A DNA stretch of 64,000 nucleotides. Source: an uncultured Alphaproteobacteria bacterium (GTDB lineage Bacteria > Pseudomonadota > Alphaproteobacteria > Rhizobiales > Hyphomicrobiaceae). Below the pieces are notes generated by a model. It was not told the origin of the DNA. It made no database searches and saw only the letters and a program-made list of their open reading frames with translations. The stretch lies in contig CAVWAT010000011.1 of assembly GCA_963753045.1 (NCBI GenBank), forward strand, positions 21,306 through 85,305, in the 5' to 3' direction. Every line of letters begins with the position of its first letter. Within the stretch, counting starts at the first letter, position 1. Both the position numbers and the translations under genes were made by a program. Positions 5,379 to 60,893 of this stretch are shown piece by piece.

Positions 5379-5642
5379 CTAGCGTGCGTTTTCTTCGGGC
5401 ATATCGCACTGAAGGTAAGTTGCTGGGTCGTCAGTTGGCATGAAAGCCACGACATTGGCGTATGGGCCATCAGGATCGCCGTAGGTGACGATCGCGTATT
5501 GGTCCCTGGGTCCGTAAACCCCGTACGACTGACAACATTGGCGGCGGATTTTGTAATAGGCGCCGGACCACCGTCCTGGACCGGGCGGTGGCTTGGGGAT
5601 GTTCTTTTCCCACCTTTTGCGCTGTGCCTGACTGAATATCAC
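5379..5642 (-). CDS. Hypothetical phage protein (87 aa)
   Basis: ORF 9 bp downstream of rep, same strand. Confidence 0.6.
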   Translation of the reverse strand: MIFSQAQRKRWEKNIPKPPPGPGRWSGAYYKIRRQCCQSYGVYGPRDQYAIVTYGDPDGPYANVVAFMPTDDPATYLQCDMPEENAR

Positions 5643-5651
5643 CCCTCCTGC

Positions 5652-7172: not shown

Positions 7173-7180
7173 GTTAACTT
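7152..7180 (+). promoter_or_regulatory. Sigma70-type promoter antisense to rep, straddling its start codon
   Basis: TTGACT (7152-7157), 17-bp spacer, TAACTT (7175-7180). Confidence 0.6.
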
Positions 7181-7185
7181 AGTTC

Positions 7186-7246
7186 CATATTGTAGATAAA
7201 AATTAAGCCGCCCAGACCCGGCAAGGTCATTTGGGTGGCTTTTTTT
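7186..7246 (+). ncRNA. Putative ~60-nt countertranscript (antisense) RNA
   Basis: The promoter above, plus terminator stem agccgccca-gacc/ggtc-tgggtggct (G-U pair valid only on +) and T7 at 7240-7246. Confidence 0.55.
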
Positions 7247-7282
7247 GTGGCCTATGGGTTGGCGCGAATTGTGCCGGTTAGG

Positions 7283-7531
7283 TTACTTGATCTCGTTGAT
7301 ACGCAACGCTTCCTCAATCTCAGCACGCAGCCAGATTTTTTTGCTGCTCTTACCACCGCAACCAATCTTTCTCGGCGGCGGAATAATCTTTGCTGCGACC
7401 AGAGATTCCGCATTGCGACGGGTGATGCCGTAGCAGCTGAGGTCCTTGATGCCGACGATAGGCTTCTTGGTCGTCATATCCATTCCCATTCTCTCGCCGT
7501 GTGTGTGGTTTCCAAACAAAAAACACCGCAC
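7283..7531 (-). CDS. AlpA/excisionase-like HTH regulator
   Basis: Short basic protein ending PPPRKIG..IWLRAEIEEAL. Confidence 0.7.
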   Translation of the reverse strand: MRCFLFGNHTHGERMGMDMTTKKPIVGIKDLSCYGITRRNAESLVAAKIIPPPRKIGCGGKSSKKIWLRAEIEEALRINEIK

Positions 7532-8598
7532 AAGCGGATTGCCATGCGGTGTTCATCTGAGCATACGTGCGCTCAATTCTATTTGCATAATACACGGTAT
7601 AAGCTTCTATGGCAACCCATATTTAGTCATTTTATACTTTCTCGGCAGCAAACTGAGCCACCATCCGCCAATAGCCCCCAATTCATAGGCGTTAGCGCCG
7701 GGAACTTTTTTTCAATTATCTTGCATTCGGTCTGCAATTCGCTATGTTTCCGGTTCGGAATAGCCATCCGAGACGTCCATAGGCCACAAATACGGGACTA
7801 ATCACCAGCTCTGCCAAGGCTGTTGATTCGCACGAATTGAGGGGGCGGGAATCGATTGGCAGCGGTTCCCGCCTTTATTGCATCTTCTATTCCCGAGTCA
7901 TTTCCGATCGTTTTCGTTCCAGTTTTGTAAATAAGCTGGGAACTTGATTGTTCGCCCCCTCAAGAGCGCCGAGCTGCCTGGCACCGACGCTATCGCCCTT
8001 TCGCCTAGGTGGGCGACGGGCTTGCATCTCGCAACGAAACTTATTTGGGGCTCTCATCTAAGCAAAAACGTAGCGTTGAGGCTTGTAATCTGGTTCTGGC
8101 GCTCTGTTTCATTATTTGTTTCGGTCACCCAATGTTGAAGTTGTATGTCGGTCGCATGGCTCACGAGGTTGCTGCGTGAGAGCCGTTCTGCTTTGAAGGC
8201 TCAATATCCCGACACGTGATTAAATCCCTCTCAGCGGTCAACTGCGTGTCCCTTCCCAGGAAAGCCTCCAGACCTCCGGGAAGAATTGTTCAGGTCTAAC
8301 CCCTGCTTTCCGCCGCAAGGCATCCGCAATCCGCGCACTTTAAAAAGTCGGCGAGAATGAAAGAGGTTTGCAAAGGGTCGCCAAGCTGCATATACCGCCA
8401 CCCGTTTGAAAACAAAGAGTATAAATCGAGGCCCGGCGATCGATCCTTGAAGTTTCGACATGCCCTGGGTTGCATCGAAGGTAACGAAAGGTTTCCCCGA
8501 CATTGCCAGCGACGCGGTCGAAGACAAGCAGACATCACGTGACCAAGACTTCGGCCTGGTCCTTTCAGCTGCACTCAGAAGTTGTGAGGCTTGCCCAT

Positions 8599-8640
8599 AA
8601 AAGAAGCCCGACGCAGGGGTGTCCGAGAACCTGCGCCGGG
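8599..8640 (-). terminator. Intrinsic terminator-like hairpin
   Basis: Minus strand cccggcgcagg..cctgcgtcggg followed by cttctttt. Confidence 0.5.
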
Positions 8641-8787
8641 CCGGTGAACGGGTAGACCTGGAGGACGAATGCAAGCAGTGCTCACGCCCGGACGCCGTTC
8701 GCACTCCAGTAATATTCTGCGCCGCCTACGATGAACATCGGAACTTGAGAACCGCGCGATCGGATTTGTCGATCGCTGATCCGAAAA

Positions 8788-8825
8788 GGCCCGGCATTGG
8801 GGCTCGATCAACCCAATGCCGGGCC
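8788..8825 (-). terminator. 14-bp perfect inverted repeat, terminator-like
   Basis: ggcccggcattggg-N10-cccaatgccgggcc, with a T4 tail on the minus strand. Confidence 0.5.
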
Positions 8826-9407
8826 AAAATTTCAGGGAGCGCGAGGTGGTTGCGGCTTCAAAAGCGCTCGACCCGAATGGAACGCGATCGAGCATTGGTG
8901 CAATGACCGAACTGTGGCTCTCCGCGCCCCACGTTATATCGATTTGTTGATAAGCAGCGCTCGGTGCGCGCCGAACGAGTGCGGGGCCCACGTTTCACAT
9001 GGACCGTTCTGACGATGAGTTGGAAAGGCCGCCAGCTCAATCATCGACGGGGGGAGCGCGTCGATCTGCCAGAGAAACGTGTCATATTGGGAACTAGTTC
9101 TCGGCGTGTCGGACTTCCCCACAGAAGAGCGTCGCCGTGTGGAAAAAAGCCCCTGCAACCAGGGCATTTGGGCGACGCAAAACTGAAAGACTTTTTCTCG
9201 ATCAACCGGACTTGAGTTGCATTGTGAAGTGGTTCGTCGCCGCCACTGCCGTTGCTCAGCGGCTCACTGCCTTGGTATTCGCGCGGGTCGACATTTCAAC
9301 GCCGATTTGCGTTGCACAAAATAGAAACACTAAGTGATGGCAATCAGCCTATTCGAACAGCACAAGTGAGTGTAGCGGTTGAGGTGCAAGGGGGACTTGC
9401 AGAGGGA

Positions 9408-9464
9408 GAGGCGAGAGCAAACCAGGGTCGTTAACGGGGGGTTAATATGGTTCGCTCTCGCCTC
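9408..9464. repeat. 17-bp inverted repeat with inner ttaac/gttaa stem
   Basis: gaggcgagagcaaacca..tggttcgctctcgcctc (one mismatch). Confidence 0.5.
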
Positions 9465-9640
9465 AGCTGCAGCGATCACAGACGTTGGCCAAAAGTCCAA
9501 CCGGACGCGCAGACAATAATCGCGTAGCTGATCGCGCCGTTGAAAGCGAAGTCATTCTCGAAACACCCGCCATCAACTTGTAATGACGACTTTGAAATAA
9601 AGATGGCGCGTCAGTTGTATAGGTCTTTCTGGTGGCTTGG

Positions 9641-18045: not shown

Positions 18046-19747
18046 TCACGCTTCCCCGGGCATGGGGGGCGCGTCCGGCATTCGTTCGGACATGCGTGCC
18101 CGTGCCGCCGCGATCGGCTCGTTCAGCGCAGCGCCGAGGTCCGGACGCTCCAAGAAGACGTTCTCGGGACCGATCGCGGCCGCAAGGCCGGTCCGTTCGA
18201 GCTGTCCGCGGAGTTCCTCGCTCACGCCGGCCAGCATTAGCGTTCCATCGGCGCGCTCCAGGGCGGCTGCGTAGCGGCCGAGCAGCCGGATCACCGTGCT
18301 ACCGAGGTCGTCGACATCGCGCAGGACAAGGATAAGCGTCGATGCCCCGTGCGCTCTCCACCTCGGGAAGTTGCGGCTCCAGCACCTGCGCGGAAGCAAA
18401 GAAGAGCGAGCCGCGGATGCGCAGCACCCGAACCTCGCCGGGCCCGAGCGCGCAGCGGGGCCGGTCTCTCGATCGGAAAGCCGCCGTCGACAAGCTCGAA
18501 TTCGCGTACCTCGATGCGGTTCGACATCCGCAGGATCTGCAACAGGAACGACAGTGCGACGCCGATCAGGATGGCGAATTGCAGCGGCAGAAACAGCGTC
18601 GCCACGAAGGTCGCCACCATGGCCGCCCGCGCCGGCCGCCCTGTCGCCCAGACCGCCCGGATCGATTCGGGCTGGATGTTCTGGAAGCCCACGACGAGCA
18701 GCAGCCCGCCGAGCGCCGCCATCGGCACCAGTTTGACCAGATCGACCAGCAGCAAGACGATCAGCACTACGAAGGCGCCGGCGAAGATGTTCGCCCAGCG
18801 CGAGCGGGCGCCAGCCTGGACGTTGACCGCCGTGCCCGACATCGACCCGCCGCAGGGAATGGCGCTGAACGCGCCGGCCGCGAGATTGGCCGCGCCTTGC
18901 CCCACGAAGTCGCGCGAGGTATCGGGGAAGCTGCCGTCCGGGTTCGGATAGCTCTGGCCGACCCCGGCGCCCTGGATCAGGCCGATGATCGCGATCGCGA
19001 AGGCCGGCAAGGCGATTGCTGGCAATTGGGCAAGGTCGGGCAGGACCGGGTAGGGCAGGCTGCGCGGGATGGTGGCGATGTCGCCCACCAGCACCGCCGT
19101 GCTTTCGCCGGCGACCTGCGCCATAACGACGGCGAGTCCGTCGTCGCAGCCAGCGCGAGGATCAACGCGAACTTCCGTGCGGGCGTGCGCTGGAAGGCGA
19201 GGATCAGGGCGACGGTCGCGATACCGAGGGCGACGGTCTGGCGGATCGAGGATGCGCCAGTTCATCGCCGTATGCGCGAGGCGCAGAAGATGGTTCGGTT
19301 GGTCGCTCGAAAAGCCCGTGATGTCCGACACCGAGCCGAACATGATGAGAAGCGCGATGCCGGTGATGAAGCCGGTCATCACGGCGATGGAGACGAAGCG
19401 GATCAGCCGTCCGAGCCGCAGCAGCCCGAAAACCATCTGGAAGGCCCCCACCAGCAGCACCAGCGCCACGAGCGCTCCCAGCTTCTCTTCGCCCTCGAAC
19501 GGATCAAGCGCCTCGCCGGCCGCCACGGACAGACGCGCCGGTCGTCGAGACGTTCATGAACACCGAACTGGTGAAGAGCGCGCCAACCGGCATCGCCACC
19601 ATCAGGGCATAAAGCCCAGCCACAGGATTGACGCCTGGCCAGAATGGCGTTGGCCATGCCCTGCGGCACGTTGACGATGGCGAAGGTCGCGCCGGCCACC
19701 AGGTCGGCGCCGATGTTCCCACGCTCCAGCTTCAGCTCGGCCGGCAT
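18046..19747 (-). pseudogene. SulP-family anion permease with STAS domain, frameshifted
   Basis: DLVAG..VNVPQGMA, AVMTGFITG, GQGAANL, GSLFFAS (STAS). Confidence 0.85.
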
Positions 19748-37468: not shown

Positions 37469-39106
37469 ATGAGAACCGGGGAGCGGAACGGTTTTATCGG
37501 AGACATCTACGGCGGTCTGACAGCCGCCGTTGTGGCATTGCCGCTGGCGCTGGCCTTCGGCGTTGCTTCAGGCGTCGGTGCGATTGCGGGCCTCTACGGC
37601 GCCATCGCCGTCGGCTTCTTCGCCGCTGTATTCGGTGGCACGCCAAGCCAGGTTTCCGGCCCCACCGGCCCGATGACCGTGGTGATGGCGACGATCGTCG
37701 CTCAATTTGCCGACAACCTACCCCAGGCATTCGCCATCGTCGTTCTCGGCGGACTACTGCAGATCGCTTTCGGCCTTATGCGCGTCGGCCGATATGTCTC
37801 CTACACCCCCTACTCTGTCGTCTCCGGCTTCATGTCGGGGATCGGGGTTATCATCATACTGATCCAAACCTTGCCGTTTGTCGGCGCTGCCGCCGTCAGT
37901 GGCGGACCGATGGGCGCCGTGATGTCCTGGCCCGCCGTTGTCCACGGTATCAACACCGATGCGCTGATGATCGCATTGCTCGCGCTCGCCGTCATGATCT
38001 TCTGGCCCAACCGGTTCGGCCGCTATCTGCCTGCACCGTTGGCTGCATTGATCGCAGGTACACTCGCCGGCCTGCTCGTTTTCCACACCGCCCCCGTTAT
38101 CGGCGACGTGCCCACCGGACTTCCTGCGTTGCGGATACCGAGTGTGGAGCTCGCCAGCCTCCCAGCGATTGTCGAGCCGGCGCTCATTCTCGCTCTTCTC
38201 GGATCAATTGACAGCCTGCTGACCTCCCTTGTAGCCGATTCAATCACAAGGAGCCGCCACGACTCCAACCGTGAATTGATCGGCCAGGGCATCGGCAACG
38301 TCGCTGCCGGATTGATTGGAGCGCTACCTGGAGCCGGTGCCACGATGCGCACCGTGGTCAACGTTCGCGCCGGTGGACGAACCCGACTGTCTGGCGCGCT
38401 TCATGCCCTCATATTACTGGCGCTTGTTCTCGGCCTGGGCCCCATCGCCGAGCAGATCCCCCACGCCGCCTTGGCCGGCATACTGATGAAAGTTGGCTGG
38501 GACATTATCGACTGGTCGTACTTGAAGAGGTTCCGCAGCGCCCCGCGCGACAAACTCACCATCATGCTGGTTACGCTAACTCTGACGGTATTCGTCGACC
38601 TTATCACGGCAGTTGCGGTCGGCTTGATCTTGGCCGGATTTGTTACCGCGCGTTGGATGGAGACCGAAGAATTGAAGGGCGTCACCCAGTTGGCGCTTCC
38701 CGAGAACGAAGATTCGCTCAGTGGGGCTGAACGCGCCGCTCTCAAGCGCAACAACGGCAAGATCGCTCTTTTGGCCCTACGCGGGCACTTTTCTTATGCC
38801 TCCGCGCGCGAATTGGTGCAGCGAGTTGGGATGGGCATATCTGGCTATCAGGTCGCCATTTTCGATTTCACCGAAGCTGCTCATATCGACACCAGCGCGG
38901 CACTGTCGATTGAAGCCATGCTTGAGTTGGCTCAAGAAGAGGTCAAAGGCATCTTCGTCAGCGGTCTATCCGGCTCTGCCGAAGAAACCCTCACCCGGCT
39001 TGGCGCCCTCCAGCATGTGCCTGAATCACACATCACCCAGACGCGGATGCAAGCGATCGAGTGCGCCACTGCACTTTTGAAAGATCTGGAAAATGCACCG
39101 CCATAG
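37469..39106 (+). CDS. SulP-family (BicA-like) anion transporter with STAS
   Basis: GGLTAAVVALPLALAFG, SGPTGPM, NRELIGQG, GAGATMRT. Confidence 0.92.
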   Translation: MRTGERNGFIGDIYGGLTAAVVALPLALAFGVASGVGAIAGLYGAIAVGFFAAVFGGTPSQVSGPTGPMTVVMATIVAQFADNLPQAFAIVVLGGLLQIAFGLMRVGRYVSYTPYSVVSGFMSGIGVIIILIQTLPFVGAAAVSGGPMGAVMSWPAVVHGINTDALMIALLALAVMIFWPNRFGRYLPAPLAALIAGTLAGLLVFHTAPVIGDVPTGLPALRIPSVELASLPAIVEPALILALLGSIDSLLTSLVADSITRSRHDSNRELIGQGIGNVAAGLIGALPGAGATMRTVVNVRAGGRTRLSGALHALILLALVLGLGPIAEQIPHAALAGILMKVGWDIIDWSYLKRFRSAPRDKLTIMLVTLTLTVFVDLITAVAVGLILAGFVTARWMETEELKGVTQLALPENEDSLSGAERAALKRNNGKIALLALRGHFSYASARELVQRVGMGISGYQVAIFDFTEAAHIDTSAALSIEAMLELAQEEVKGIFVSGLSGSAEETLTRLGALQHVPESHITQTRMQAIECATALLKDLENAPP

Positions 39107-40122: not shown

Positions 40123-40620
40123 CTACTGCGTGCGTGCGCTCATCAGCGCCGAACGAAGAGCTTCAACAAACTCGCGACGCTCGTCGTCGCTCAAAAACCG
40201 TCCAAACACCAGTTCGCGGCCGTGCGAGGTCAGCCACATAATGGTTCGCCCATCGGTTTCCTCCGTGAGCCCCACACGCACCCAATAAGGATTGAAATCG
40301 TATGATTGCGCACGGCCTCTGGGGTCCACACGCGTCAGCTTTAACAGCTGCCGCGACAGCTCGACCGTCTCATACTCACGCCCGGAACGGTAATTCAGCC
40401 TAAAAGCAACGTAGATCAGCAGCACGTCGAGCCCGAAGAATCCGAGAATGGGCCAAGCGCCGAGCAACAAGAAATACATGCCAACGACGAAGCTGACGAG
40501 CGCGATCGACGACATCAAAACCAGAAAGCCGAAGGGACTGAGCGAGCGATGCGGTGTCAGAATTGCGTTGAACGTTTCCGCTGGTTGCGCTTCTTGTTGT
40601 TGCTCTTCCATCCAACTCAC
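40123..40620 (-). CDS. DUF2244 family membrane protein
   Basis: LTPHRSLS, GAWPILGFFGLD, FNPYWVR, FGRFL. Confidence 0.85.
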   Translation of the reverse strand: MSWMEEQQQEAQPAETFNAILTPHRSLSPFGFLVLMSSIALVSFVVGMYFLLLGAWPILGFFGLDVLLIYVAFRLNYRSGREYETVELSRQLLKLTRVDPRGRAQSYDFNPYWVRVGLTEETDGRTIMWLTSHGRELVFGRFLSDDERREFVEALRSALMSARTQ

Positions 40621-40680
40621 CTGTCGTGCAACGGCATCGACGTCCTTTCGCGAAGCCCGAAACCGGTTCTACCCAGCCCC

Positions 40681-41622
40681 ATGAAAGCCAACAAAGCCAT
40701 CAAAGCCAAGACAACTTCAAAAAAAACAAACAAGGCCACGAAACCCTCCGCTGCCCCGACGGCGGTAACTCAGCAATCGCCCAAAAAACCGGCAGCCGCG
40801 AACGAGCAGCCAAAACGCTCCAAGCCGGCACAGAGCCCCGCCGCCGCCAAAGCCTCTCGTGTAAAGCCAAAACCAAAAGCCCCCAAGAAACGCCGTCGCC
40901 CCTCGGTATCTCCCGAAACTGTCGAAGCCATTTTCTCCCGGTTTTTCGAAATCGAGCCGGAACCGAAGGGCGAACTGGAGCATACCGATGCTTACACCCT
41001 TCTAGTCGCCGTCGTTTTATCCGCTCAAGCCACCGACGCCGGCGTCAATAAGGCCACCCGCGCTCTCTTTGCCGCCGCCGATACGCCTGAAAAAATGGTC
41101 ACGATCGGCGAAGACCGTGTGCGCGAAATGATCAAGACCATCGGGCTCTTCCGCAACAAGGCCAAGAACGTCATCGCCTTATCACGCAAGCTCATCGACG
41201 AGCACGCAGGCGAGGTTCCGCGAGACCTCGCAGACCTTGAAAGCCTCCCGGGAGTCGGCCGCAAAACCGCTAACGTCGTGCTCAATGTCTGGTTTGGCGA
41301 GCCGGCAATGGCCGTTGACACACACGTTTTTCGTATCGCCCATCGGCTCGGCTTTTCAAAGGGCAAGACGCCGGAGGAGGTGGAAGCCGATCTTCTTGCC
41401 ATTGTCCCACGGCAATACGGCGTACCCGCCCACCATTGGCTGATCCTGCACGGGCGCTATCTGTGCAAGGCACGCAAGCCGGAGTGTTGGCGTTGTCCGA
41501 TCCGCGACCTATGCCCGTACAAGAAAAAACGCCGGCCCCCAATCGGTAGGCCGGCGTCCGAGAACGTTTTCATGTCGAGCGGATTTCAATTGACCGCTGC
41601 GACCGCAATCAGTGCCAGATGA
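40681..41622 (+). CDS. nth: Endonuclease III with a Lys/Pro-rich N-extension (start uncertain)
   Basis: LSAQATD, LPGVGRKTANVV, VDTHVFR, C-KARKPEC-x2-C-x5-C. Confidence 0.93.
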   Translation: MKANKAIKAKTTSKKTNKATKPSAAPTAVTQQSPKKPAAANEQPKRSKPAQSPAAAKASRVKPKPKAPKKRRRPSVSPETVEAIFSRFFEIEPEPKGELEHTDAYTLLVAVVLSAQATDAGVNKATRALFAAADTPEKMVTIGEDRVREMIKTIGLFRNKAKNVIALSRKLIDEHAGEVPRDLADLESLPGVGRKTANVVLNVWFGEPAMAVDTHVFRIAHRLGFSKGKTPEEVEADLLAIVPRQYGVPAHHWLILHGRYLCKARKPECWRCPIRDLCPYKKKRRPPIGRPASENVFMSSGFQLTAATAISAR

Positions 41623-42028
41623 CCGCGAGAAGGCGACGACCCACGCGCGTCCTTAGCTCGTCGCACTCGATGGTGCGGTCGCCGTCTGGATTAGCAGCGT
41701 AAAAGCGCCCCCGAACGAGCCGGGTCCACTCAACGCGGTCCAAGCCCCTGCGTTTGATTTTGTTGTAGCGATCAAAAGTCTTCGGACCGATACGGCCACG
41801 GACCTCGTCGTATTCCAGCGTGAAATCGCCGTCCGGGTTCAGCGCCCGGAATGTCGCCTTGCCGGCACGTTTGGCTTCGAAAATATTCAGCTTGCCGTCG
41901 CGATTACGATCATACTTGGCGATGACCTTGCAGGCGTGGGCTCCGGCTTCAACAACGGGTGCTGTCACGGTTGCTGTAAATCCCACGGCGACGGCTGCCG
42001 CGAGGCTTATTGCGATCTTTGATTTCAT
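41609..42028 (-). CDS. Secreted four-loop EF-hand protein, divergent lanmodulin-like
   Basis: Signal peptide; loops DRNRDGKLNIFE, NPDGDFTLEYDE, NKIKRRGLDRVE, NPDGDRTIECDE separated by 12/13/12 residues, the LanM spacing. Confidence 0.8.
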   Translation of the reverse strand: MKSKIAISLAAAVAVGFTATVTAPVVEAGAHACKVIAKYDRNRDGKLNIFEAKRAGKATFRALNPDGDFTLEYDEVRGRIGPKTFDRYNKIKRRGLDRVEWTRLVRGRFYAANPDGDRTIECDELRTRVGRRLLAVIWH

Positions 42029-42272
42029 TTATTGGACTCCGATTGAACAACAAGCAGGCAGCCTCCGGACAGGGAGCGCATCTTTGCAACGATCCCAAGC
42101 CGCAGCGACCCCTACCAAGTTGATGTCGCGCGTGAGCCCTAGCACCTCAAAGGTTTCATTAAAAACTAAATTTCGCGCTGCAGCATTTGGCCGCAAGAGG
42201 CTGCGACAAAACGCAAACAAGCGGGACCCTCCGGTCCCGCTTGGGTTGACTACTCTTTTATGTTGTACCGGC

Positions 42273-42727
42273 TCAGGTCCTAACGGCTTCCCTGTCCCAA
42301 AGACGAGCTTCACTCAGCGCGTCGCCCGCAACAACCAGTCCCGCGCCAAGAAGCACGACATCTTTCAAAAGGAACTGGCCAGGAACCACCGACAGTGCCA
42401 GAAACCCTCCGAGGCTTGCTTCCCAGCCAGGCGCCGACAAGATGAAGGTCAGCGTGACCGCCGTCGTCGCTGCGACAAGAAAACCGCCAACAAAACGGCA
42501 GTGGCGATTTCAACCGTGCCGATCAGGTTTGCGACGCCGCGCACGTCAAGAATGCTGTAAAGCCAGTATAATATTGGGCTAGAGCCAACCAGGCCCTGAA
42601 TGGCGTTGGCTTCATAGGCAGTAAATTTCATTGCCCCAATCCACGCAAACACGAGGGCTAGACCGTACAGGATCACCTTGCCACCGAGTGCGGAGACAGC
42701 GTTGTTTGAAATCGAGTAATTGCTCAT
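42273..42727 (-). pseudogene. YkgB/RclC (DUF417) membrane protein, one frameshift
   Basis: WIGAMKFTAYEA..I..LV..SP, then in a shifted frame TLTFILSAPGW..GQFLLKD. Confidence 0.8.
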
Positions 42728-42902
42728 GATCATCATCCTCTCTCGCGTTTCCGCGATCTGAATTCCATTTTTACGACGACGTCTCGCGTCGGCGTTGTCC
42801 CCAATATGCATTTGGAGCCGATTGGTTCATAACACACTTCTGTGAGTTGTTGACTTTTTGATCCCAAACCCGATCTCTAGTGCAAGTTGAGGAGATTGGA
42901 CC

Positions 42903-43499
42903 ATGGCGCGACCGCGCGAATTCGATATCGACGATGCCATCGCAAAAGCCGTCGAAGTGTTTTGGCTGAGGGGCTATGACGGCGCTGCCCTACCCGACTT
43001 GCTGGACGGAATGGGGATCGCGAGGGGCAGCCTGTACAAAGCCTTCGGCGACAAGAAGCAGCTCTACCTTCGCGTGCTGCAAAGGTATGATGAAGTTGCC
43101 GTGGCGGGCGCTGTTGAACGACTTACAGACCCAAGCGAGCCCGATGGCGTCAAGCGTATCGCCCGCCTCTTCGACTCGGTCATTGATGTTGTCCGTGAAG
43201 GAGACCGAAAGGGCTGCCTGATGTGCAACGCCGCTGCCGGTCCCGCTTCCGAAGACGCCGATATCGGCAGGGTTGTTTCAAGAATGCTGACCAGGATGAC
43301 GCAAGCCTTCGCCGCCGCGCTGCAGGCTTCCCAACGGGCCCAAGAATGGCCCCAAGAAGCTCAGGAAGCCGAGGCGGAAAGCCTGACTGCTTCTTATGTG
43401 GGTTTGCGCATTCTCGCCAAGGCCGGCGAGCCGGCCGACCGGCTGCAAGCCGCTGCCGATGCGGCCGTCGGCAAAAGCCTTCGTAGCGGGAAGGTCTAG
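42903..43499 (+). CDS. TetR-family regulator, divergent from the DUF417 gene
   Basis: MARPREFD..FW..GY..GSLYKAFGDK, KGCLMCN. Confidence 0.92.
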   Translation: MARPREFDIDDAIAKAVEVFWLRGYDGAALPDLLDGMGIARGSLYKAFGDKKQLYLRVLQRYDEVAVAGAVERLTDPSEPDGVKRIARLFDSVIDVVREGDRKGCLMCNAAAGPASEDADIGRVVSRMLTRMTQAFAAALQASQRAQEWPQEAQEAEAESLTASYVGLRILAKAGEPADRLQAAADAAVGKSLRSGKV

Positions 43500-55297: not shown

Positions 55298-56482
55298 GTG
55301 GCGCAAGAAGGTGGACGCAAGGGAGGATGGACGTTGCACTGGGAAGATTGGTCGCCGTGCACATGCGGCATCCACGTTGCTTTTAGCACCGCAGATTCGG
55401 TCGCGGACGCGATTGTCGAACTGCGCGCCAATCTTCCAGATCCAAGTTTCTCCCACCTGATCGCATTTTTCTCCCCCAGACACGATCCCTCAGCCGTCGT
55501 TGCTTGCCTGACAGAGGCTTTTCCAGGCACACCCTTCAGCGGTTGCACGACGTCCGGAGAGATTACACCGACCGGGAATTGCGGCGGCAGTATTCAGCTG
55601 ATCGCCTTTGAAGCGTCGCGCTTCCGCTTTGTCAGCGCGGTCATTGAGAACGCCAGCTGTTCCGGCGTTGAGGATGCCTCCCACCTGGCCCGCCGTCTGA
55701 AGACACAAATTTGCGACCAAGGCAATGCTGCCAACAAATTCGGCTTACTGTTAACCGACGGTCTTGCGAACCATGAAGAGACATTGGTTGCGGCTGTGAA
55801 TTGGGCTTTGGGCGACATTCAATTGATCGGTGGCTCGGCTGGCGACGACTTGCGCTTTAAGGATGCAGCTCTGATCCACAACGGTGGAGCCGTCAAAGAT
55901 GCCGCCATCTTGATGCTCGTCGAGACCGATGTTCCCTTTCACGCCTTCAAGACACAGAACTTCGATCCGACGCCGACCAAGCTCGTTATCACCGCAGCTG
56001 ATGCGGAGCGCCGCATCGTACAGGAATTCAACGCCGAACCGGCCGCCCTTGAATACGCCAACGCCATCGGGCTGATACCCAATGATCTTGGGCCGTTCAG
56101 CTTCGCCTCGCATCCACTCGTCGTGAAGGTTGGCAACGATTACTACTGCCGCTCTATCCGCAACATGAACCCGGACGGCAGTTTGTCGTTCTTTTGCGCG
56201 ATCGATGTTGGCCTAGTGCTGACCGTGGCCCGCCCGACTGATCTGGCCGAAGCAACCGAAGCCAAACTCGCCGAAGTCGACAAACTCTTGTCGGGTACGC
56301 AGTTGATCCTCGGCTTCGATTGCATCCTGAGACGCCTCGACGCCGAAAACCGCCAAATGGGCAACCGCATGGAAACGATCTACAAACGCCATAAGATCGT
56401 TGGCTTCCATACCTACGGGGAACAATACAACGCCATGCATTTAAACCAGACCCTAACCGGGATAGCATTTGGCGCACCATGA
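55298..56482 (+). CDS. FIST-domain sensor (NosP-like)
   Basis: GCTTSGEI, GGSAGDD, EFNAEPAA..YA, GFDCILR, GFHTYGEQ. Confidence 0.9.
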   Translation: MAQEGGRKGGWTLHWEDWSPCTCGIHVAFSTADSVADAIVELRANLPDPSFSHLIAFFSPRHDPSAVVACLTEAFPGTPFSGCTTSGEITPTGNCGGSIQLIAFEASRFRFVSAVIENASCSGVEDASHLARRLKTQICDQGNAANKFGLLLTDGLANHEETLVAAVNWALGDIQLIGGSAGDDLRFKDAALIHNGGAVKDAAILMLVETDVPFHAFKTQNFDPTPTKLVITAADAERRIVQEFNAEPAALEYANAIGLIPNDLGPFSFASHPLVVKVGNDYYCRSIRNMNPDGSLSFFCAIDVGLVLTVARPTDLAEATEAKLAEVDKLLSGTQLILGFDCILRRLDAENRQMGNRMETIYKRHKIVGFHTYGEQYNAMHLNQTLTGIAFGAP

Positions 56483-56552
56483 ACAGTAACGACCTCAACA
56501 CAGCCCGCTAAACGGGACCGTATTAGAGCCAAGCTCAGGCGAAACCGACCGC

Positions 56553-57899
56553 ATGCCCCAATCAACTCCACAAACCCTCAATCGACAGCTGGAAAAGCTT
56601 ACCAAGATTAACGCCGCGCTCATCGAACGTGTCGAACGGTCGGTCGAGCAGCAGGGCAACGCCTACTCTCTTTTCACCGCGGCAATCGGGCTGGAAAACC
56701 AGGTTCGCCAACGAACCGACGAGCTCCAGGAAGCCCTTGAAAGGCTTGAACGCTCCAACGATGCACTGGTCGACGCCCGCGACGAGGCAGAACGGGCCAA
56801 TGAAGCAAAGACGCGCTTCTTCACTGCTGTTGGCCACGATCTACTGCAGCCATTGCACGCCGCCCGGTTAACCGTCTCTGCACTGGGTGAAAGCAACGAG
56901 ATTTCCGAAAACAAGAAGCTCGCGGATCAGATCGACCACGCCCTGTCTTCGGTCGAGGATCTGCTGCGCACGATGCTCGACATCACCAAGATCGAAACCG
57001 GCGTTACCCAACCCGCCCCGCGACCGATGTCGCTGAGCGACCTGTTCCACTCTCTGCACGTTGATTTTGCCCCGATCGTGACTGAGAAGGGTCTCGCTCT
57101 CACTGTAGACGCGCACGGCTTGGACGTCGTTTCCGATCCACCCATGCTGCGCCGAATCCTTCAAAATCTGTTGTCGAACGCCGTGCGCTTCACCGATGTT
57201 GGGCAGGTCACGCTGCAGGCCGAGCGGCACGGCGACAAAGTCACGATCAAAGTCACGGACACCGGCCCAGGCATACCCGAGAATGACCGCTACCGAATCT
57301 TCGAAGAATTCCAAAGCGGCTCAAATGTGCGCCCGGCCCGCGATGGCGGCTTTGGGCTCGGGCTCTTCATCGTCAAGCGCATGGCGCACGCCTTGAATCA
57401 CTTGGTCACTTTGGACTCAGAACCCGGAACAGGCTCGACATTCACAGTGCATGTGCCGTTCGCGGGGCAAACCTCAAGCATCGTTGACAAGGCAAAGCGG
57501 GCAGAAACACGCAAGGCCCAGTATGGCTTCGCTGATGTCCACGTGATGGTGATCGAGAATGATCTCAACATCATCGCGGCCACTAAGACCTTGCTCGACC
57601 AGTGGAATTGCCAGACATTTCCAGCAACCGATCTCAAACAAATCGAAGACTACATCGCCACCGCCGAGCAGCCGCCGGCGATCATCCTCGCGGACTATCA
57701 CCTCGAAGACGATGAGTGCGGCCTGACAGGTGTGGCGCGGCTTCGCTCAGCCTGGAACACCCAAATCCCCGCGATTGTGATAACCGCGGACCACGGGACA
57801 CAGTCTGCTTCGGCGGTGAAGGCGGCCGACTGCGAACTCCTCTGCAAACCTATCCGGCCAGCAGAGCTACGTGCCTTGATGCAGCATTTGTTGAACTGA
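56553..57899 (+). CDS. Cytoplasmic hybrid histidine kinase (NahK-like)
   Basis: INAALIERVERS N-terminus, GHDLLQPL H-box, NLLSNA, DTGPGI, GFGLGL, receiver ILADY..KP. Confidence 0.92.
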   Translation: MPQSTPQTLNRQLEKLTKINAALIERVERSVEQQGNAYSLFTAAIGLENQVRQRTDELQEALERLERSNDALVDARDEAERANEAKTRFFTAVGHDLLQPLHAARLTVSALGESNEISENKKLADQIDHALSSVEDLLRTMLDITKIETGVTQPAPRPMSLSDLFHSLHVDFAPIVTEKGLALTVDAHGLDVVSDPPMLRRILQNLLSNAVRFTDVGQVTLQAERHGDKVTIKVTDTGPGIPENDRYRIFEEFQSGSNVRPARDGGFGLGLFIVKRMAHALNHLVTLDSEPGTGSTFTVHVPFAGQTSSIVDKAKRAETRKAQYGFADVHVMVIENDLNIIAATKTLLDQWNCQTFPATDLKQIEDYIATAEQPPAIILADYHLEDDECGLTGVARLRSAWNTQIPAIVITADHGTQSASAVKAADCELLCKPIRPAELRALMQHLLN

Positions 57900-57931
57900 G
57901 CGCACGCCACGCAACAGCGACAGTGCGACGC

Positions 57932-58597
57932 TCAAGCCCCGCTCAATCCCGTGGGCCTCTCGTCGGGCAACACGACCTTGGACACTTCGATCACCGCCTG
58001 CGTCCGCGATGCGACACCAAGCTTGCGCAGGATTTCGGAAACGTGCGCCTTCACCGTGGTCTCGCCAACGCTCAATTCGTGCGCGATCTGCTTGTTGAGC
58101 AAACCCTGCTTCAGCATATTCAGAACGCGCAGTTGCTGCGGCGTTAGCGACTTCAGCCGGGCAATGATCTCAACCGTCTCATTGGTCGCCGAATTGGGTG
58201 GCTCGTACCCCGGAGGCAGACACACCTCGCCGTTCATCACACCCTAAATCGCACCAGCGAGTTCCGGCTTGCGCACCGCTTTTGAGATGTATCCCGATGC
58301 GCCGCATGTCATCGCCCGATGTATCGTGTCTGGTTCTTCGATCGCCGAAACGATCACCACCGGAAGCTTCGGGTGCCGCGCCCGCAGTTCGAGGAGGCCT
58401 TCAAAGCCTCTGGTCCCCGGCATGTTGAGATCGAGGAGCACCAGATCGAAGACACCGCCCCCCTCGATGGCATCGAAGGCCGAAGCCAGGGAATTCGCCT
58501 CGGCGATCTGCGCCTCGGGAAAAGCCGTGTTAATGGCCAACTTCATGGCATCAAGAAACAGGGGGTGATCGTCAACGACGAGAAAACTCTCTGGCAT
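57932..58597 (-). pseudogene. NarL/LuxR response regulator (ErbR/AgmR-like) split by an in-frame TAG at 58244-58246
   Basis: VVDDHPLF, LLDLNMPG, GYISK receiver; LTPQQ..NKQIAHEL..TVKAHVSEILRKL HTH in the same frame after the stop. Confidence 0.85.
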
Positions 58598-58776
58598 GTT
58601 GCTGGTTTCCAGGAAGCTGGTTGCGACCGCAATGTCTGCCATAACTCTAGCCTTCACAACGTAAACTGCAATCGTGGCCGGGAAAATCATGCCTAGTGAA
58701 TAGAAAGGGGATAAGCAGTCGTGTACCGCTTACCCCCGAATTCGTCGATCGAGCCTGTGCTCAAACGTCGATCCGC

Positions 58777-60576
58777 TTACTTCGCAGCAAGGGACTTCGG
58801 CAGCTTGAAGGTCCAAACCATGCCGCCCTGATTCAGGTGCGCAACGGTCTTGGCGACTTCACCACCCCACAACGGAACAGCACCGCCCCAGCCGGAAACA
58901 ACCGTGATCATCTGCTCACCGTCCTGTTCCCAGGTGATCGGCGAACCAACGATGCCGGAGCCCGTGTTGAATTTCCAAAGCACCTTGCCGGTCTTGGCAT
59001 CGAGTGCTTTGAGGTACCCTTCAGGCGTGCCGGTAAAGACGAGACCGCCGCCCGTCGACAGAACACCACCCCACAACGGAGCGTTGTTCTTCATTGTCCA
59101 GACGATTTTACCGGTTGCCGGATCAACAGCCTTCAGAGCACCAATGTGATCGTCGAAGATCGGCTTAATCGTAAAGCCGGCGCCCAGGTACGCCGCACCA
59201 GCCTTGTAAGTAACCGGCTCGTTCCAAATATCCATGCCCCACTCGTTGGCGGGCACGTAGAACAATTTGGTGGCTGGCGAATAGGAGATCGGCATCCAGT
59301 TCTTACCGCCGAGGAAGCTCGGGATGGCGAAGACCGAGCTGCCCTTCTTGCCGTCTTTTGAGGCTGTTGGATCTCCGGGACGGTTGGCAGGATCGTAAAT
59401 CGGACGGCCGTTCTCATCGAGCCCAATCGCCCAGGTAATTTTCTCAACAAATGGGAAGCCGCGGATGAACTTACCGTTCTCGCGGTTCAGGACATAGAAG
59501 TAGCCGTTACGGTCGGCCGTACCGACTGCTTTGGTGCCGTCGAGGTCGAACGAGACGACTTCGTTGACGCCATCATAGTCCCAGCCGTCGTTGGGTGTGG
59601 TCTGGAAGCCCCACTTGATCTCACCGCTTTCCGGATCAATCGCGAGACGCGAGCACGACCATTTATTGTCGCCCGGACGCATATGGCTATTCCACGGCGC
59701 CGGGTTGCCGGTTCCCATGAAGATCAGCTTGGTGTCCGGATCGTAAGTGCCGCCGAGCCAAGTGGCTGCACCACCGGTCTTCCACAGATCGCCCGGCCAG
59801 CTTTCATTCTTCTTGCCGGTCATCGTGGAGTCTACGCCATTGAGCGTACCCATATGGCCTTCGATGGTGGGACGCGACCAGACTAGTTCGCCATCGTCGA
59901 TCTTGCGAGCTTCGACCCGGCCGATGATGCCGAATTCACCACCGGAAACACCGGTGACCAGCAGCGGCCCGTGTGCTTTGGAAGGTACTATGAGCGGAGC
60001 TGCTGTATACGAGTAGCCCTTCTTGTAATCGTCGATCTTCTTCTTCCAGACGACCTTGCCGGTCTTCCGGTCGAGCGCAACGAGCTTGGCGTCGAGCGTA
60101 CCGAAAATCACCTTGTCGCCGAACAGTGCGGCGCCACGGTTGATAACATCACAGCAAGGCAAAATGCCTTCGGGCAGCCGGGCATCGTACTGCCAAATCT
60201 CCTCGCCCGTTTTGGTGTCGATCGCCCACATACGGCTGTAGGACCCGGTGATGTACATCACGCCGTCCTTGACCAGCGGCTGGGTTTCCTGACCGCGCAT
60301 CTTTTCGCCGCCGAGCGACATCGTCCAGACCGGAACAATCATATCGACGTTGCCGGTATTGACCTTGTCGAGAGGGCTGTAACGCTGACCCTGCGGACCC
60401 AGGCCATTGCTGACTACGTCCTCAGTTGTCTTGGCGTCGTTAACGATGTCATCAATAGTGACATCTGCCAGTGATGGCTGCGAGATTGCAACCGACAGCG
60501 CAACCGCACTGGCGGAAAGTACCCACTTCCTCATGTTCGGCGTTCCCCTTGTTGCTAGTTTGTTGACCGAATTCAC
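58777..60576 (-). CDS. exaF: PQQ-dependent alcohol dehydrogenase, lanthanide-type (ExaF/PedH-like)
   Basis: Signal peptide, vicinal CC, W-rich beta-propeller repeats, active-site [19 protein letters not shown]. Confidence 0.9.
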
Positions 60577-60893
60577 GCTCTAATTGCGCCCAGGGTTTCG
60601 GTTTCGCCCAGGCGATTACTCAGCTGCAATGCAGCCTAGAAGGGCCTTTCAGGGATGAGAAAGCGCCAGTGGCGTATGGAAGGTGACACCAACCAAGGCT
60701 TTCCGTCTCCGGCACAGTTTCTTGCGAAAAAGGCCAGCGACACGGTAACGCAGGTGGTGCAAGGCTCTAATTGCCAAATAGTACAGGAAACCGGGCAATT
60801 CGGCGTGTCGAGAAAAGAAACTTTGGAAGCTAGCCCCGGACAAGCTGCATACCAAAAGAACAGAAACGTTTCCCAAGCGCCGCAATGCGGATC

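What the first reader, a model, noticed from the sequence alone, without database searches (positions are those of the whole stretch)
41609..42028. Cationic lanmodulin-like protein with rewired EF loops in a genome with a lanthanide-type dehydrogenase
Seen: signal peptide plus four 12-residue loops spaced 12/13/12, with inter-loop segments AKRAGKATFRAL, VRGRIGPKTFDRY, WTRLVRGRFYAA and tail LRTRVGRRLLAVI. Established (sequence recalled from memory): Methylorubrum LanM has the same spacing with ALAAGSAAFDKL, LKGRVSEADLKKL, YLAAVEAQFKAA, LASPAGSALVNLI and D-P-D-x-D-G-T-x-D-x-x-E loops; calmodulin-type spacing is about twice as long. Differences here: EF3 has lost its ligands (NKIKRRGLDRVE), EF1 lacks Pro2, EF2 and EF4 keep Pro2 but have Asn1, non-Gly6 and Glu9; two Cys could staple the N-terminus to EF4; my hand count is ~26 K/R vs ~16 D/E. 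Inference: a distinct LanM subfamily with fewer sites and shifted size selectivity, or a partner- or surface-binding role, of possible use in rare-earth separation. It is not next to the TonB/ABC lanthanide uptake genes that usually flank lanM.
Basis: partly seen in the sequence, partly recalled or inferred. Interest (0 to 1): 0.82.

Follow-up and report, generated by a model that had tools for sequence, protein, structure and literature searches.

The report
Cationic, disulfide-stapled lanmodulin with dead EF3
This small secreted protein of a marine-sediment Filomicrobium is a true but unusual relative of lanmodulin, the bacterial rare-earth-binding protein: it is strongly basic, carries a conserved cysteine pair and has lost one of its four metal loops, which makes it an untested scaffold for rare-earth chemistry but not a new kind of protein.

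Summary
Window 41609-42028 (-) encodes a 139-aa protein with a signal peptide and four 12-residue EF loops spaced 12/13/12. The mature chain has 26 K/R against 16 D/E (pI 10.1). It is a genuine lanmodulin (LanM) homolog: phmmer E 4e-17 to 6e-16 against solved LanMs, and a full-length NCBIfam LanM hit of 90 bits, below the 135-bit equivalog cut-off. The AlphaFold model (pLDDT 93) matches LanM crystal structures at TM 0.87-0.92.

It belongs to a monophyletic, strongly purified subfamily of about 40 sequences, all from Filomicrobium or Hyphomicrobiaceae metagenome genomes. The gene always sits between a hisF-like gene and nth.

EF2 and EF4 carry exactly the Hansschlegelia-type lanthanide ligand set (N1 D3 D5 T7 E9 E12). 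EF1 is a canonical Ca-type loop. EF3 is a conserved cationic loop (N-x-I-K-R-K-G-L-D-R-x-E) that lacks ligands 3 and 5. The two cysteines co-occur perfectly across LanM relatives. A PedH-type, lanthanide-signature alcohol dehydrogenase lies 17 kb away.

Metal binding, selectivity and any partner role are untested. Mattocks et al. 2023 (supplement) had already noted one such Hyphomicrobiaceae ortholog and the two-cysteine group. I therefore rate it a new variant of a known kind, interest about 0.5.

The parts
41609..42028 (-). Whole ORF of the lanmodulin-like protein (139 aa plus stop)
41945..42028 (-). Predicted Sec signal peptide, res 1-28, MKSK...VVEA|G. It is not a lipobox, because the residues before Cys33 vary among homologs.
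   Evidence: Sequence inspection
41612..41944 (-). Mature protein, 111 aa, pI 10.1, 26 K/R vs 16 D/E. AF2 pLDDT 92.9; LanM three-helix-bundle fold.
41930..41932 (-). Cys33, in the N-terminal helix before EF1; partner of Cys122
   Evidence: Invariant in 51/51; co-occurrence 69 both / 121 neither
41876..41911 (-). EF1 DRNRDGKLNIFE: canonical Ca-type ligand set D1 N3 D5 (K7 backbone) N9 E12, with Arg2 in place of Pro2
41804..41839 (-). EF2 NPDGDFTLEYDE: Hans-type ligand set N1 D3 D5 T7 E9 E12; 9/12 identical to Hans-LanM EF2
41729..41764 (-). EF3 NKIKRRGLDRVE: degenerate, conserved cationic loop (D3->Ile, D5->Arg, Gly6->Lys/Arg; keeps N1, D9, E12)
41711..41713 (-). Arg106, equivalent of the Hans-LanM dimer residue R100 (Lys in 32/40 subfamily members)
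41657..41692 (-). EF4 NPDGDRTIECDE: Hans-type ligand set, invariant Arg6, and Cys at loop position 10; the best-conserved loop of the clade
41663..41665 (-). Cys122 (EF4 position 10), partner of Cys33
42037..42040 (-). Shine-Dalgarno GGAG, 8 nt before the ATG
42119..42195 (-). Conserved upstream block (TGCGGCnAAaTGyTGCAnnGCrAAA ... GGTGCTAGGGCTCA), a probable promoter/operator of this gene
58777..60576 (-). PedH-type PQQ alcohol dehydrogenase with the lanthanide-signature Asp (WDYDG, res 331-336): candidate client and context, not adjacent

Best explanation
The gene encodes the lanmodulin ortholog of a Filomicrobium/Hyphomicrobiaceae lineage: a small periplasmic protein with the LanM three-helix-bundle fold.

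Shown: homology, predicted fold, purifying selection, transcription, positional orthology, loop chemistry, charge, and cysteine covariation.

Inferred mechanism: after Sec export, Cys33 (N-terminal helix) and Cys122 (EF4 position 10) form a disulfide that staples the termini. EF2 and EF4 carry the same N1/D3/D5/T7(C=O)/E9/E12 set that gives 10-coordinate La(III) sites in Hans-LanM, so they are the high-affinity lanthanide sites. EF1, a canonical D-x-N-x-D-G-x-L-N-x-x-E loop, is a weaker Ca/Ln site. EF3 no longer binds metal. Its Ile3 packs into the core and its Lys/Arg at positions 2, 4, 5, 6 and 10 neutralise the remaining D9/E12. The loop is therefore held in a holo-like shape without a cation, as in the Ca-independent EF loops of S100A10 (my own knowledge).

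Together with about 13 subfamily-specific Lys/Arg gains, this removes the carboxylate repulsion that keeps canonical apo-LanM disordered. The protein is then probably more pre-folded, binds two or three Ln(III) ions rather than three or four, and presents a basic surface. Its likely job is periplasmic lanthanide buffering or hand-off for lanthanide-dependent quinoproteins such as the PedH-type enzyme 17 kb away.
For: Homology and fold:
- NCBIfam LanM hit, E 9e-26, full length.
- PDB LanMs at E about 1e-16, while calmodulin-like proteins score E > 0.3.
- AF2 pLDDT 92.9. Foldseek TM 0.87-0.92 and rmsd 1.2-1.4 A to 8FNS/8DQ2, against TM < 0.55 for all other EF-hand proteins.

A real, functional gene:
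- 51 homologs.
- dN/dS 0.06-0.27 with saturated dS.
- Metatranscriptome contigs cover the ORF; X25 gives 420 nt at 41646-42065, 98.8% identical.

Loop chemistry and conservation:
- EF2 and EF4 ligand positions are 93-100% conserved. The EF3 cationic loop is equally conserved (G7, D9 and E12 in 40/40; I3 and L8 in 38/40).
- The Hans ligand set is defined in Mattocks 2023.

Disulfide: 69 sequences have both Cys and 121 have neither. The only singletons are three N-terminally truncated fragments and one with a doubtful N-terminus. Mattocks et al. proposed the same disulfide.

Charge: pI 9-10.4 in the subfamily against 4.1-6.5 for most relatives.

Orthology: the slot hisF-like/LanM/nth/DUF2244/ada is shared with relatives that still have an intact EF3.

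Lanthanide context: PedH-like enzyme with WDYDG.
Against: - No metal-binding data exist for any member known to me.
- The NCBIfam score is below the LanM equivalog cut-off (90 vs 135 bits).
- EF1 has lost D3 and D9 and looks like an ordinary Ca site.
- The gene is not linked to lut/TonB uptake genes or directly to the dehydrogenase in any of 23 loci.
- The Cys-Cys distance and the EF3 side-chain geometry could not be measured, because model coordinates are not exposed.
- AlphaFold predicts holo-like folds regardless of metal, so 'pre-folded' is conjecture.
- Whether these genomes also hold a canonical LanM is unknown.
Confidence: 0.6

Rival explanations
1. It is a periplasmic Ca(II)-binding or Ca-stabilised EF-hand protein that descended from lanmodulin but no longer has a lanthanide-specific role. 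This is how public annotation names its relatives.
For: EF1 is a textbook Ca-type loop, and carboxylates were lost at EF1.3, EF1.9, EF2.1, EF3.1, EF3.3 and EF3.5. It scores below the LanM equivalog cut-off. It has no lut/TonB neighbourhood. Homologs are named 'calcium-binding protein' or 'EF-hand domain-containing protein'. Diep et al. 2026 describe LanM-like clusters C2/C3 with Ca-like loops and flat rare-earth selectivity.
Against: EF2 and EF4 keep the full Hans-type set with four carboxylates plus Asn1, which gives 10-coordinate La sites. Pro2 is retained in EF2 and EF4. Seawater and sediment Ca is millimolar, so a Ca site would be permanently saturated and uninformative. A lanthanide-type PedH is present in the same region.
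Confidence: 0.2
2. It works as a lanthanide-dependent dimer along a new interface, as Mattocks et al. suggested for the one Hyphomicrobiaceae ortholog they saw. Arg106 (= Hans R100) of one chain would contact D3/E9/D11 of EF2 of the other, giving light-versus-heavy rare-earth discrimination.
For: Arg106 aligns with Hans R100, and EF2 of the window protein has D3, E9 and D11.
Against: Across the subfamily this position is Lys in 32/40 and Arg in only 8/40, and R100K abolishes dimerisation in Hans-LanM. EF2 position 11 is Asp in only 16/40. The subfamily is not part of the Hans cluster. No multimer model could be run.
Confidence: 0.12
3. Metal binding is vestigial. The conserved basic surface and the cationic EF3 loop bind an anionic partner (PQQ, a lanthanophore, LPS or polyphosphate, or an acidic protein such as the dehydrogenase) and that binding is the real function.
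For: There are thirteen subfamily-specific Lys/Arg gains at conserved positions, including EF3.2, EF3.5 and EF3.6, R103, K/R106, R118 and R132. pI is about 10 against about 4.5 for canonical LanMs. The PedH-like enzyme is mildly acidic, pI about 5.9.
Against: Near-invariance of every ligand position in EF1, EF2 and EF4 argues that metal binding is still selected. No partner gene is co-located or co-conserved.
Confidence: 0.08

Closest known systems
Hansschlegelia quercus lanmodulin (Hans-LanM; PDB 8DQ2/8FNR) and the Hans cluster (e.g. the Ancylobacter lacus protein, 9PI2)
   Same: Same fold (TM 0.91, rmsd 1.3 A) and best sequence matches (E 4e-17 and 2e-16). Same 12/13/12 spacing. EF2 and EF4 use the Hans ligand set N1 D3 D5 T7 E9 E12 with a non-Gly residue at position 6. 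A basic residue sits at the R100-equivalent position.
   Different: About 37% identity, and a separate clade (Hans cluster 200/200). Hans-type loops sit at EF2 and EF4, not EF1-3. EF3, the Hans dimer contact and a high-affinity site, is dead here. The weak canonical loop is EF1, not EF4. There is a Cys pair. pI is 10.1 against 4.7-4.8.
Methylorubrum extorquens AM1 lanmodulin (Mex-LanM; PDB 6MI5/8FNS)
   Same: Signal peptide, size, four loops spaced 12/13/12, Pro2 in some loops, three-helix bundle (TM 0.87-0.92).
   Different: 37.5% identity. Mex has four D-P-D-x-D-G-T-x-D-x-x-E loops with D9 and two waters. Here only two loops keep Pro2, position 9 is Glu or Asn, and one loop is non-functional.
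The 'unclassified Hyphomicrobiaceae' LanM and the 'two-cysteine LanM group' mentioned in Mattocks et al. 2023, Suppl. Fig. S23
   Same: The description fits this subfamily exactly: Arg at the R100 position, EF3 lacking several Ln ligands, D11 in EF2, and cysteines near EF1 and EF4 with a proposed periplasmic disulfide.
   Different: That was one sequence and two sentences in a figure legend, with no charge analysis, clade definition, synteny or biochemistry. Here the variant is shown to be a conserved clade of about 40 members. The proposed dimer residues are not conserved.
Sister Hyphomicrobiaceae two-cysteine LanMs in the same hisF/nth slot (e.g. P0044, P0046, P0058; loci L010-L021)
   Same: Positional orthologs with an identical EF4 DGDRTIECDE loop and the Cys pair.
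   Different: EF1 is D-P-D-x-D-G. EF3 is intact (NPDKDGSLSMGE, DRNKDGRLSRGE) or decayed in other ways (DTIIKDGRIGMLE with a one-residue insertion; DIIKLKGLNLGE). pI ranges from 4.8 to 9.7.

Membership tests
Lanmodulin (LanM), criteria of Mattocks et al. 2023 (PMC10232371) | Four EF-hand motifs | tested here: inconclusive
   Four 12-residue loops lie in register with LanM, but EF3 lacks ligands 3 and 5 (I, R). Three are competent and one is degenerate. Diep et al. 2026 also admit '3 EF-hand orthologs'.
Lanmodulin (LanM), criteria of Mattocks et al. 2023 (PMC10232371) | Adjacent EF hands separated by 12-13 residues (<14), not ~25 as in calmodulin | tested here: met
   Spacers are 12/13/12; the criterion is quoted.
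Lanmodulin (LanM), criteria of Mattocks et al. 2023 (PMC10232371) | At least one EF hand with Pro at position 2 | tested here: met
   EF2 NPD... and EF4 NPD.... Pro2 is present in 22/40 (EF2) and 19/40 (EF4) of the subfamily.
Lanmodulin (LanM), criteria of Mattocks et al. 2023 (PMC10232371) | Shorter than 200 residues and secreted to the periplasm | tested here: met
   139 aa. The N-terminal signal peptide was judged by inspection; no dedicated predictor was run.
Lanmodulin (LanM) | Three-helix-bundle fold with metal sites on the periphery | tested here: met
   Predicted model only: pLDDT 92.9; TM 0.87-0.92 to 8FNS/8DQ2/8FNR, next-best fold TM < 0.55.
Lanmodulin (LanM), NCBIfam NF053806 equivalog | Score at or above the curated cut-off (135 bits) | tested here: not met
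   90.4 bits, E 9e-26, model positions 7-131 of 132. It is a homolog, but PGAP would not name it lanmodulin; public relatives are named calcium-binding, EF-hand or hypothetical.
Lanmodulin (LanM) | Picomolar Ln(III) affinity, ~10^8 selectivity over Ca(II), Ln-induced disorder-to-order transition | not testable with these tools
   Needs purified protein (CD, ITC, competition titrations).
Lanmodulin (LanM) | Encoded with lanthanide uptake/utilisation genes (lut cluster, xoxF); typical but not defining | tested here: not met
   Neighbours are nth, DUF2244, ada, TetR and hisF-like. The PedH-type ADH is 17 kb away. No TonB receptor was found in the ORFs scanned.
Hans cluster of LanMs (metal-sensitive dimers) | R100 plus EF3 D3/E9/D11 dimer network; N1/E9 loops at EF1-3; monophyly with Hans-LanM | tested here: not met
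   EF3 lacks D3 and D11. The R100 position is K in 32/40. The Hans cluster is a separate clade, 200/200.
EF-hand superfamily (Pfam PF00036) | Score above the gathering threshold | tested here: met
   EF-hand_1 at 30.9 bits against a 25.4-bit cut-off.
Lanthanide-dependent PQQ ethanol dehydrogenase (PedH/ExaF type); context gene 58777-60576 | Extra Asp two residues after the catalytic Asp (D-x-D), and closer to PedH than to the Ca-dependent ExaA | tested here: met
   WDYDG aligns with PedH WDFDG. E 3e-258 to 6ZCW against 7e-200 to 1FLG. That the Asp is diagnostic is established knowledge (Keltjens 2014; Wehrmann 2017), not tested here.

The most novel reading that the evidence does not exclude
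A pre-organised, cationic lanmodulin. The disulfide and a Lys/Arg-filled EF3 would keep the bundle folded without metal. Only two Hans-type sites (EF2, EF4) would load lanthanides. The conserved basic face would dock onto an anionic partner (the acidic quinoprotein, PQQ, a lanthanophore or the outer-membrane inner leaflet), making it a true hand-off chaperone rather than a buffer. Its site geometry and electrostatics would give a rare-earth selectivity profile unlike any characterised LanM.
Probability: 0.15. Interest if true: 0.75.

Novelty: new variant of a known kind. Interest (0 to 1): 0.5.

Why it matters
Lanmodulins are the leading protein scaffolds for rare-earth separation. Their selectivity is known to vary by clade in ways that the EF loops alone do not explain (Diep et al. 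2026).

This clade combines features not found together in any characterised LanM:
- Hans-type sites at EF2 and EF4;
- a dead, cation-filled EF3;
- a terminal disulfide;
- a net charge of +10 instead of about -9.

If it binds lanthanides, it offers three things. First, a natural test of how charge and pre-organisation affect affinity and selectivity. Second, a more robust, disulfide-locked scaffold. Third, a case where EF4 rather than EF2/3 is the conserved site.

Biologically, it extends lanthanide handling to marine-sediment Hyphomicrobiaceae that carry PedH-type enzymes. If it does not bind lanthanides, it documents how a lanthanide protein decays into an ordinary EF-hand protein.

Tried and rejected
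- Exact-protein look-up of the window protein found no contig, so the source genome is not in that index. The closest relatives are a 96%-identical ENA metagenome protein (P0001) and a 93%-identical match in a Filomicrobium MAG (L002).
- The genome-collection scan used only the pattern DRTIEC[DA]E. tblastn with Mex, Hans and window LanM found just one LanM-like gene per locus and in the window.
- Model coordinates are not exposed, so the Cys-Cys distance and EF3 salt bridges could not be measured. Cysteine co-occurrence was used instead.
- The sequences of the 696/621 LanM libraries are not held as text: no hits for KGLDR or RTIECDEL in the Mattocks supplements, and no Diep supplements are held. 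Whether a member of this clade was already assayed cannot be told.
- My regex-defined wider groups ('DRTIEC', 'all two-Cys') were not monophyletic in the NJ tree (0/200), so no claim is made about a single origin of the Cys pair.
- Linkage to the quinoprotein cluster was looked for. In L018 the SBP and SoxYZ-like genes lie about 8 kb from the LanM gene, but SpoVR/PrkA stress genes intervene. I rejected this as evidence of an operon.
- Rfam found nothing credible around the gene. The upstream motif occurs nowhere else in the window, so no shared regulon with pedH could be shown.
- Lipoprotein reading rejected: the residues before Cys33 do not form a lipobox and vary among homologs.
- Non-coding or chance-ORF reading rejected.
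Full report
**1. What is in the sequence**

Window 41609-42028 on the minus strand is an ATG-initiated ORF of 139 codons. A GGAG sits 8 nt upstream of the ATG. The product begins with MKSKIAISLAAAVAVGFTATVTAPVVEA|G. This has a basic n-region, a 22-residue hydrophobic core and a V-E-A cleavage motif. I judged it by eye; no signal-peptide predictor was available.

The mature 111-residue chain contains four 12-residue loops:
- EF1: DRNRDGKLNIFE
- EF2: NPDGDFTLEYDE
- EF3: NKIKRRGLDRVE
- EF4: NPDGDRTIECDE

The loops are separated by 12, 13 and 12 residues. The mature chain has 26 Lys+Arg against 16 Asp+Glu, giving pI 10.1. This includes the Mex-LanM inter-loop segments recalled from memory, which match the 6MI5 sequence printed.

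**2. It is a lanmodulin homolog, not a generic EF-hand protein**

- Pfam sees only single EF-hand motifs (EF-hand_1, 30.9 bits).
- NCBIfam aligns the whole protein to the lanmodulin model NF053806 (positions 7-131 of 132, E 9e-26). The score is 90.4 bits, below the 135-bit equivalog cut-off.
- Against all PDB sequences, the only significant hits are the four solved lanmodulins: 9PI2 at 3.9e-17, 8DQ2 at 1.8e-16, 6MI5 at 5.5e-16 and 8FNS at 1.9e-15. Calmodulin-like proteins start at E 0.35.
- An AlphaFold2 model built on 51 homologs has mean pLDDT 92.9 and pTM 0.87.
- Foldseek places that model on the Nd-Mex-LanM and La-Hans-LanM crystal structures at TM 0.87-0.92 and rmsd 1.2-1.4 A. Every other EF-hand protein stays at or below TM 0.52.
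- Identity to Mex- and Hans-LanM is about 37.5%.

**3. It is a real, expressed and selected gene**

- The 5.8-billion-protein search returned 51 relatives at 37-96% identity.
- Pairwise Nei-Gojobori dN/dS among eight orthologous genes is 0.06-0.27 with saturated synonymous sites.
- Sediment metatranscriptome assemblies hold contigs that coincide with the ORF. Run X25 has a 420-nt contig at 41646-42065, 98.8% identical. Runs X26, X27 and X30 have shorter pieces. In X25 the flanking 4.5 kb is almost empty.
- Logan contigs cannot exclude DNA carry-over, so this is supportive evidence, not proof.

**4. A defined subfamily**

Aligning the 51 relatives with 148 representatives of the wider LanM family (5,696 proteins at E <= 1e-3 and 646 at E <= 1e-10 in 1.84 billion) shows 40 sequences that share the EF3 pattern N-x-[IF]-x-x-[KR]-G-[LIV]-D.
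- They form a clade in a neighbour-joining tree: bootstrap 167/200, or 197/200 without the outlier P0055. The Hans cluster forms its own clade at 200/200.
- Their nearest outside relatives are other two-cysteine proteins with the EF4 loop DGDRTIECDE.
- At 50% identity, the clustered library returned only two of its members as representatives (P0038 and the outlier P0055), which suggests a small group.
- All 20 genome loci found are metagenome-assembled genomes labelled Filomicrobium, Hyphomicrobium, Hyphomicrobiaceae or unclassified Alphaproteobacteria/Pseudomonadota.
- The DNA of the window recurs in subsurface, sediment and marine-sediment metagenomes.
- Public names for members are 'calcium-binding protein', 'EF-hand domain-containing protein' or 'hypothetical protein', never lanmodulin.

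**5. Positional orthology**

In the window the gene lies between nth (convergent, overlapping by 14 nt), DUF2244 and ada on one side. On the other side are a TetR gene, a truncated DUF417 ORF, a hisF-like gene and an HI0933-like flavoprotein.

The order hisF-like / LanM / nth / DUF2244 / ada is kept in the loci of close relatives (L001-L009) and in several distant two-cysteine relatives whose EF3 is intact or differently decayed (L010, L011, L019, L020, L021, and partly L015). The dead-EF3 protein is therefore the lineage's version of a gene that has sat at this locus since before EF3 decayed. It is not a recently duplicated paralog at this locus.

No locus shows TonB-dependent receptors or lut-type ABC genes nearby. 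Only one LanM-like gene is present per locus and in the 64-kb window. Whether the genomes hold a second, canonical lanM elsewhere could not be tested.

**6. Loop chemistry across the subfamily**

- **EF2** is N39/40, D39, D39, T40, E37, E40 at positions 1, 3, 5, 7, 9, 12.
- **EF4** is N37, D39, D38, T38, E36, E38 at the same positions. This is the ligand set that Mattocks et al. describe for the 10-coordinate La(III) sites of Hans-LanM: monodentate N1, bidentate D3, D5, E9 and E12, and the T7 carbonyl. The window's EF2 is 9/12 identical to Hans EF2.
- **EF1** is D-R-N-x-D-G-K-L-N-x-F-E. It has three carboxylates and two amides, and Arg replaces Pro2. This is a canonical calmodulin-style loop.
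- **EF3** keeps N1, D9 and E12. It has Ile at position 3 (38/40), Arg at 5 (29/40), Lys/Arg at 6 (40/40), Gly at 7 (40/40) and Lys/Arg at 2, 4 and 10. It cannot offer the position 3 and 5 carboxylates.
- EF3 is nevertheless as conserved as the working loops, so it is under selection for something other than metal binding.
- Sister lineages show independent EF3 decay: DTIIKDGRIGMLE with a one-residue insertion, and DIIKLKGLNLGE.
- EF4 is the most conserved loop of the whole two-cysteine group. This is the opposite of canonical LanMs, where EF4 is the weak site.

**7. Charge**

Thirteen positions are Lys/Arg in at least 70% of the subfamily but in fewer than 35% of other LanMs: K38, R41, K46, K57, K61, K87, EF3.2, EF3.5, EF3.6, R103, K/R106, R118 and R132. 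Six loop carboxylates are lost. Core pI is 9-10.4 for nearly all members, against 4.1-6.5 for most relatives; Mex is 4.3 and Hans 4.8. A few unrelated LanM-like proteins are also basic (P0081, P0107), so basicity is rare but not unique.

**8. The cysteine pair**

C33 lies seven residues before EF1, in the predicted N-terminal helix. C122 is at EF4 position 10, at the start of the exit helix. Both are invariant in 51/51 homologs.

Among 194 LanM-family sequences, 69 have both and 121 have neither. The four exceptions are three N-terminally truncated fragments and one sequence with a dubious N-terminus. This all-or-none pattern, together with periplasmic export, supports a disulfide. I could not measure the distance because coordinates are not exposed.

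**9. Context with a lanthanide enzyme**

The ORF at 58777-60576 (-) is a PQQ alcohol dehydrogenase that matches lanthanide-dependent PedH (6ZCW, E 3e-258) better than Ca-dependent ExaA (1FLG, 7e-200). It has W-D-Y-D-G where PedH has W-D-F-D-G. The second Asp is the accepted lanthanide signature; that is established knowledge and was not tested here.

It is followed by the 'quinoprotein relay' zinc hydrolase, a SoxYZ-like carrier and a solute-binding protein, and is preceded by NosP and a NahK-like kinase. The distance to the LanM gene is 17 kb, with sulfur-assimilation and cytochrome bd genes between them. This shows that the organism uses lanthanides, not that the two genes are functionally linked.

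**10. What the literature already says**

- Mattocks et al. 2023 define LanMs by four EF hands, 12-13-residue spacing, at least one Pro2 and fewer than 200 residues.
- Their Supplementary Fig. S23 legend states that a single LanM outside the Hans cluster, from an unclassified Hyphomicrobiaceae, has Arg at the R100 position. It adds that its EF3 'lacks several Ln(III) ligands' and that EF2 has D11, so it might dimerise along a distinct interface.
- The same legend notes that a group of LanMs has two cysteines near EF1 and EF4, probably forming a disulfide. That description fits this subfamily.
- My data qualify the dimer idea. The position is Lys in 32/40 members, EF2 D11 occurs in only 16/40, and R100K abolishes Hans dimerisation.
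- Diep et al. 2026 assayed 621 orthologs, including 're-added 3 EF-hand orthologs'. Their sequence list is not held, so a member may already have been measured.
- Valdes et al. 2024 treat only four-EF-hand Hyphomicrobium LanMs.
- No paper in the library links Filomicrobium to lanthanides.

**11. Interpretation**

Most likely (0.6) this is a periplasmic, disulfide-stapled lanmodulin. It would have two Hans-type lanthanide sites (EF2, EF4), one weaker canonical site (EF1) and a structural, self-neutralised EF3. The basic residues would replace the charge compensation that metal ions provide in canonical LanMs.

Homology, fold, selection, loop chemistry, charge and cysteine covariation are shown. 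Disulfide formation, metal stoichiometry, pre-folding and the physiological role are inferred.

The rivals are:
- a Ca-binding descendant (0.2);
- a lanthanide-dependent dimer on a new interface (0.12);
- an anion- or partner-binding protein with vestigial metal sites (0.08).

**12. Verdict**

The protein fails the strict 'four EF hands' and NCBIfam equivalog tests, but it meets the spacing, Pro2, size and fold criteria. It is best filed as a divergent LanM-family member, a new variant of a known kind.

Interest is about 0.5. It is a conserved, uncharacterised and chemically odd LanM clade that is easy to test and relevant to rare-earth separation. However, it was already glimpsed by specialists and has no functional data.

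Noticed in passing
window 42119-42195 (-), about -90 to -167 from the LanM-like ATG: A ~75-bp block (TGCGGCnAAaTGyTGCAnnGCrAAA ... TTGAGGTGCTAGGGCTCACGCGCGAC) is nearly invariant upstream of the gene in seven orthologous loci, although the surrounding intergenic DNA is unalignable. It occurs once per locus, is unique in the window, and has no Rfam match. It is probably a promoter plus operator or a 5'-UTR element.
   Followed up: partly
window 55298-63723: The PedH-type lanthanide ADH (58777-60576) sits with a 'quinoprotein relay system' Zn hydrolase (TIGR04558), a SoxYZ-like carrier (TIGR04557) and a solute-binding protein. Directly beside them are a NosP nitric-oxide sensor and a NahK-like hybrid kinase, a possible NO-responsive control of alcohol oxidation.
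   Followed up: partly
window 1-16050: Mobile or degraded DNA with lower G+C (0.51-0.56): two rve integrase fragments, phage terminase small subunit plus a 263-aa N-terminal piece of the large subunit, and an IS110 transposase. This looks like a prophage or IS remnant.
   Followed up: no
window 42449-43499; loci L002-L004 vs L005-L007: A TetR gene and a DUF417 ORF lie between hisF-like and the LanM gene in the window and in L002-L004, but are absent in L005-L007. The DUF417 ORF is only 120 aa and matches profile positions 9-60 of 175, so it is probably truncated. This is an indel in otherwise conserved synteny.
   Followed up: partly
window 40549-41622 (+): The endonuclease III (nth) ORF carries a ~110-residue Lys/Ala/Pro-rich, histone-H1-like N-terminal extension before the HhH-GPD domain (Pfam match starts at residue 153). 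Its 3' end overlaps the LanM-like stop by 14 nt (convergent genes). The ortholog in L001 is also long (307 aa).
   Followed up: no
window 41936-41944 (-), mature N-terminus G-A-H; subfamily alignment columns 30-31: Most subfamily members have His at position 2 or 3 of the predicted mature chain, just before Cys33 (GHH-C, GAHAC, HGHVC). With a free N-terminus, X-X-H would be an ATCUN-like Cu/Ni motif. This depends on the unverified cleavage site.
   Followed up: no
loci L010-L021 (e.g. L011 9884-10327, L010 9896-10324): In sister two-cysteine LanMs, EF3 has decayed independently in other ways (DTIIKDGRIGMLE with a one-residue insertion; DIIKLKGLNLGE), while EF4 DGDRTIECDE stays invariant. In this Hyphomicrobiaceae lineage EF3 is the expendable loop and EF4 the constrained one, the reverse of canonical LanMs.
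   Followed up: partly
window 18291-19526 (-) and 37469-39106 (+): There are two SulP-family genes. The first (411 aa) matches only the C-terminal part of the Sulfate_transp profile and lies in a high-G+C patch (0.63-0.68), so it may be a truncated copy. The second is full length with a STAS domain.
   Followed up: no
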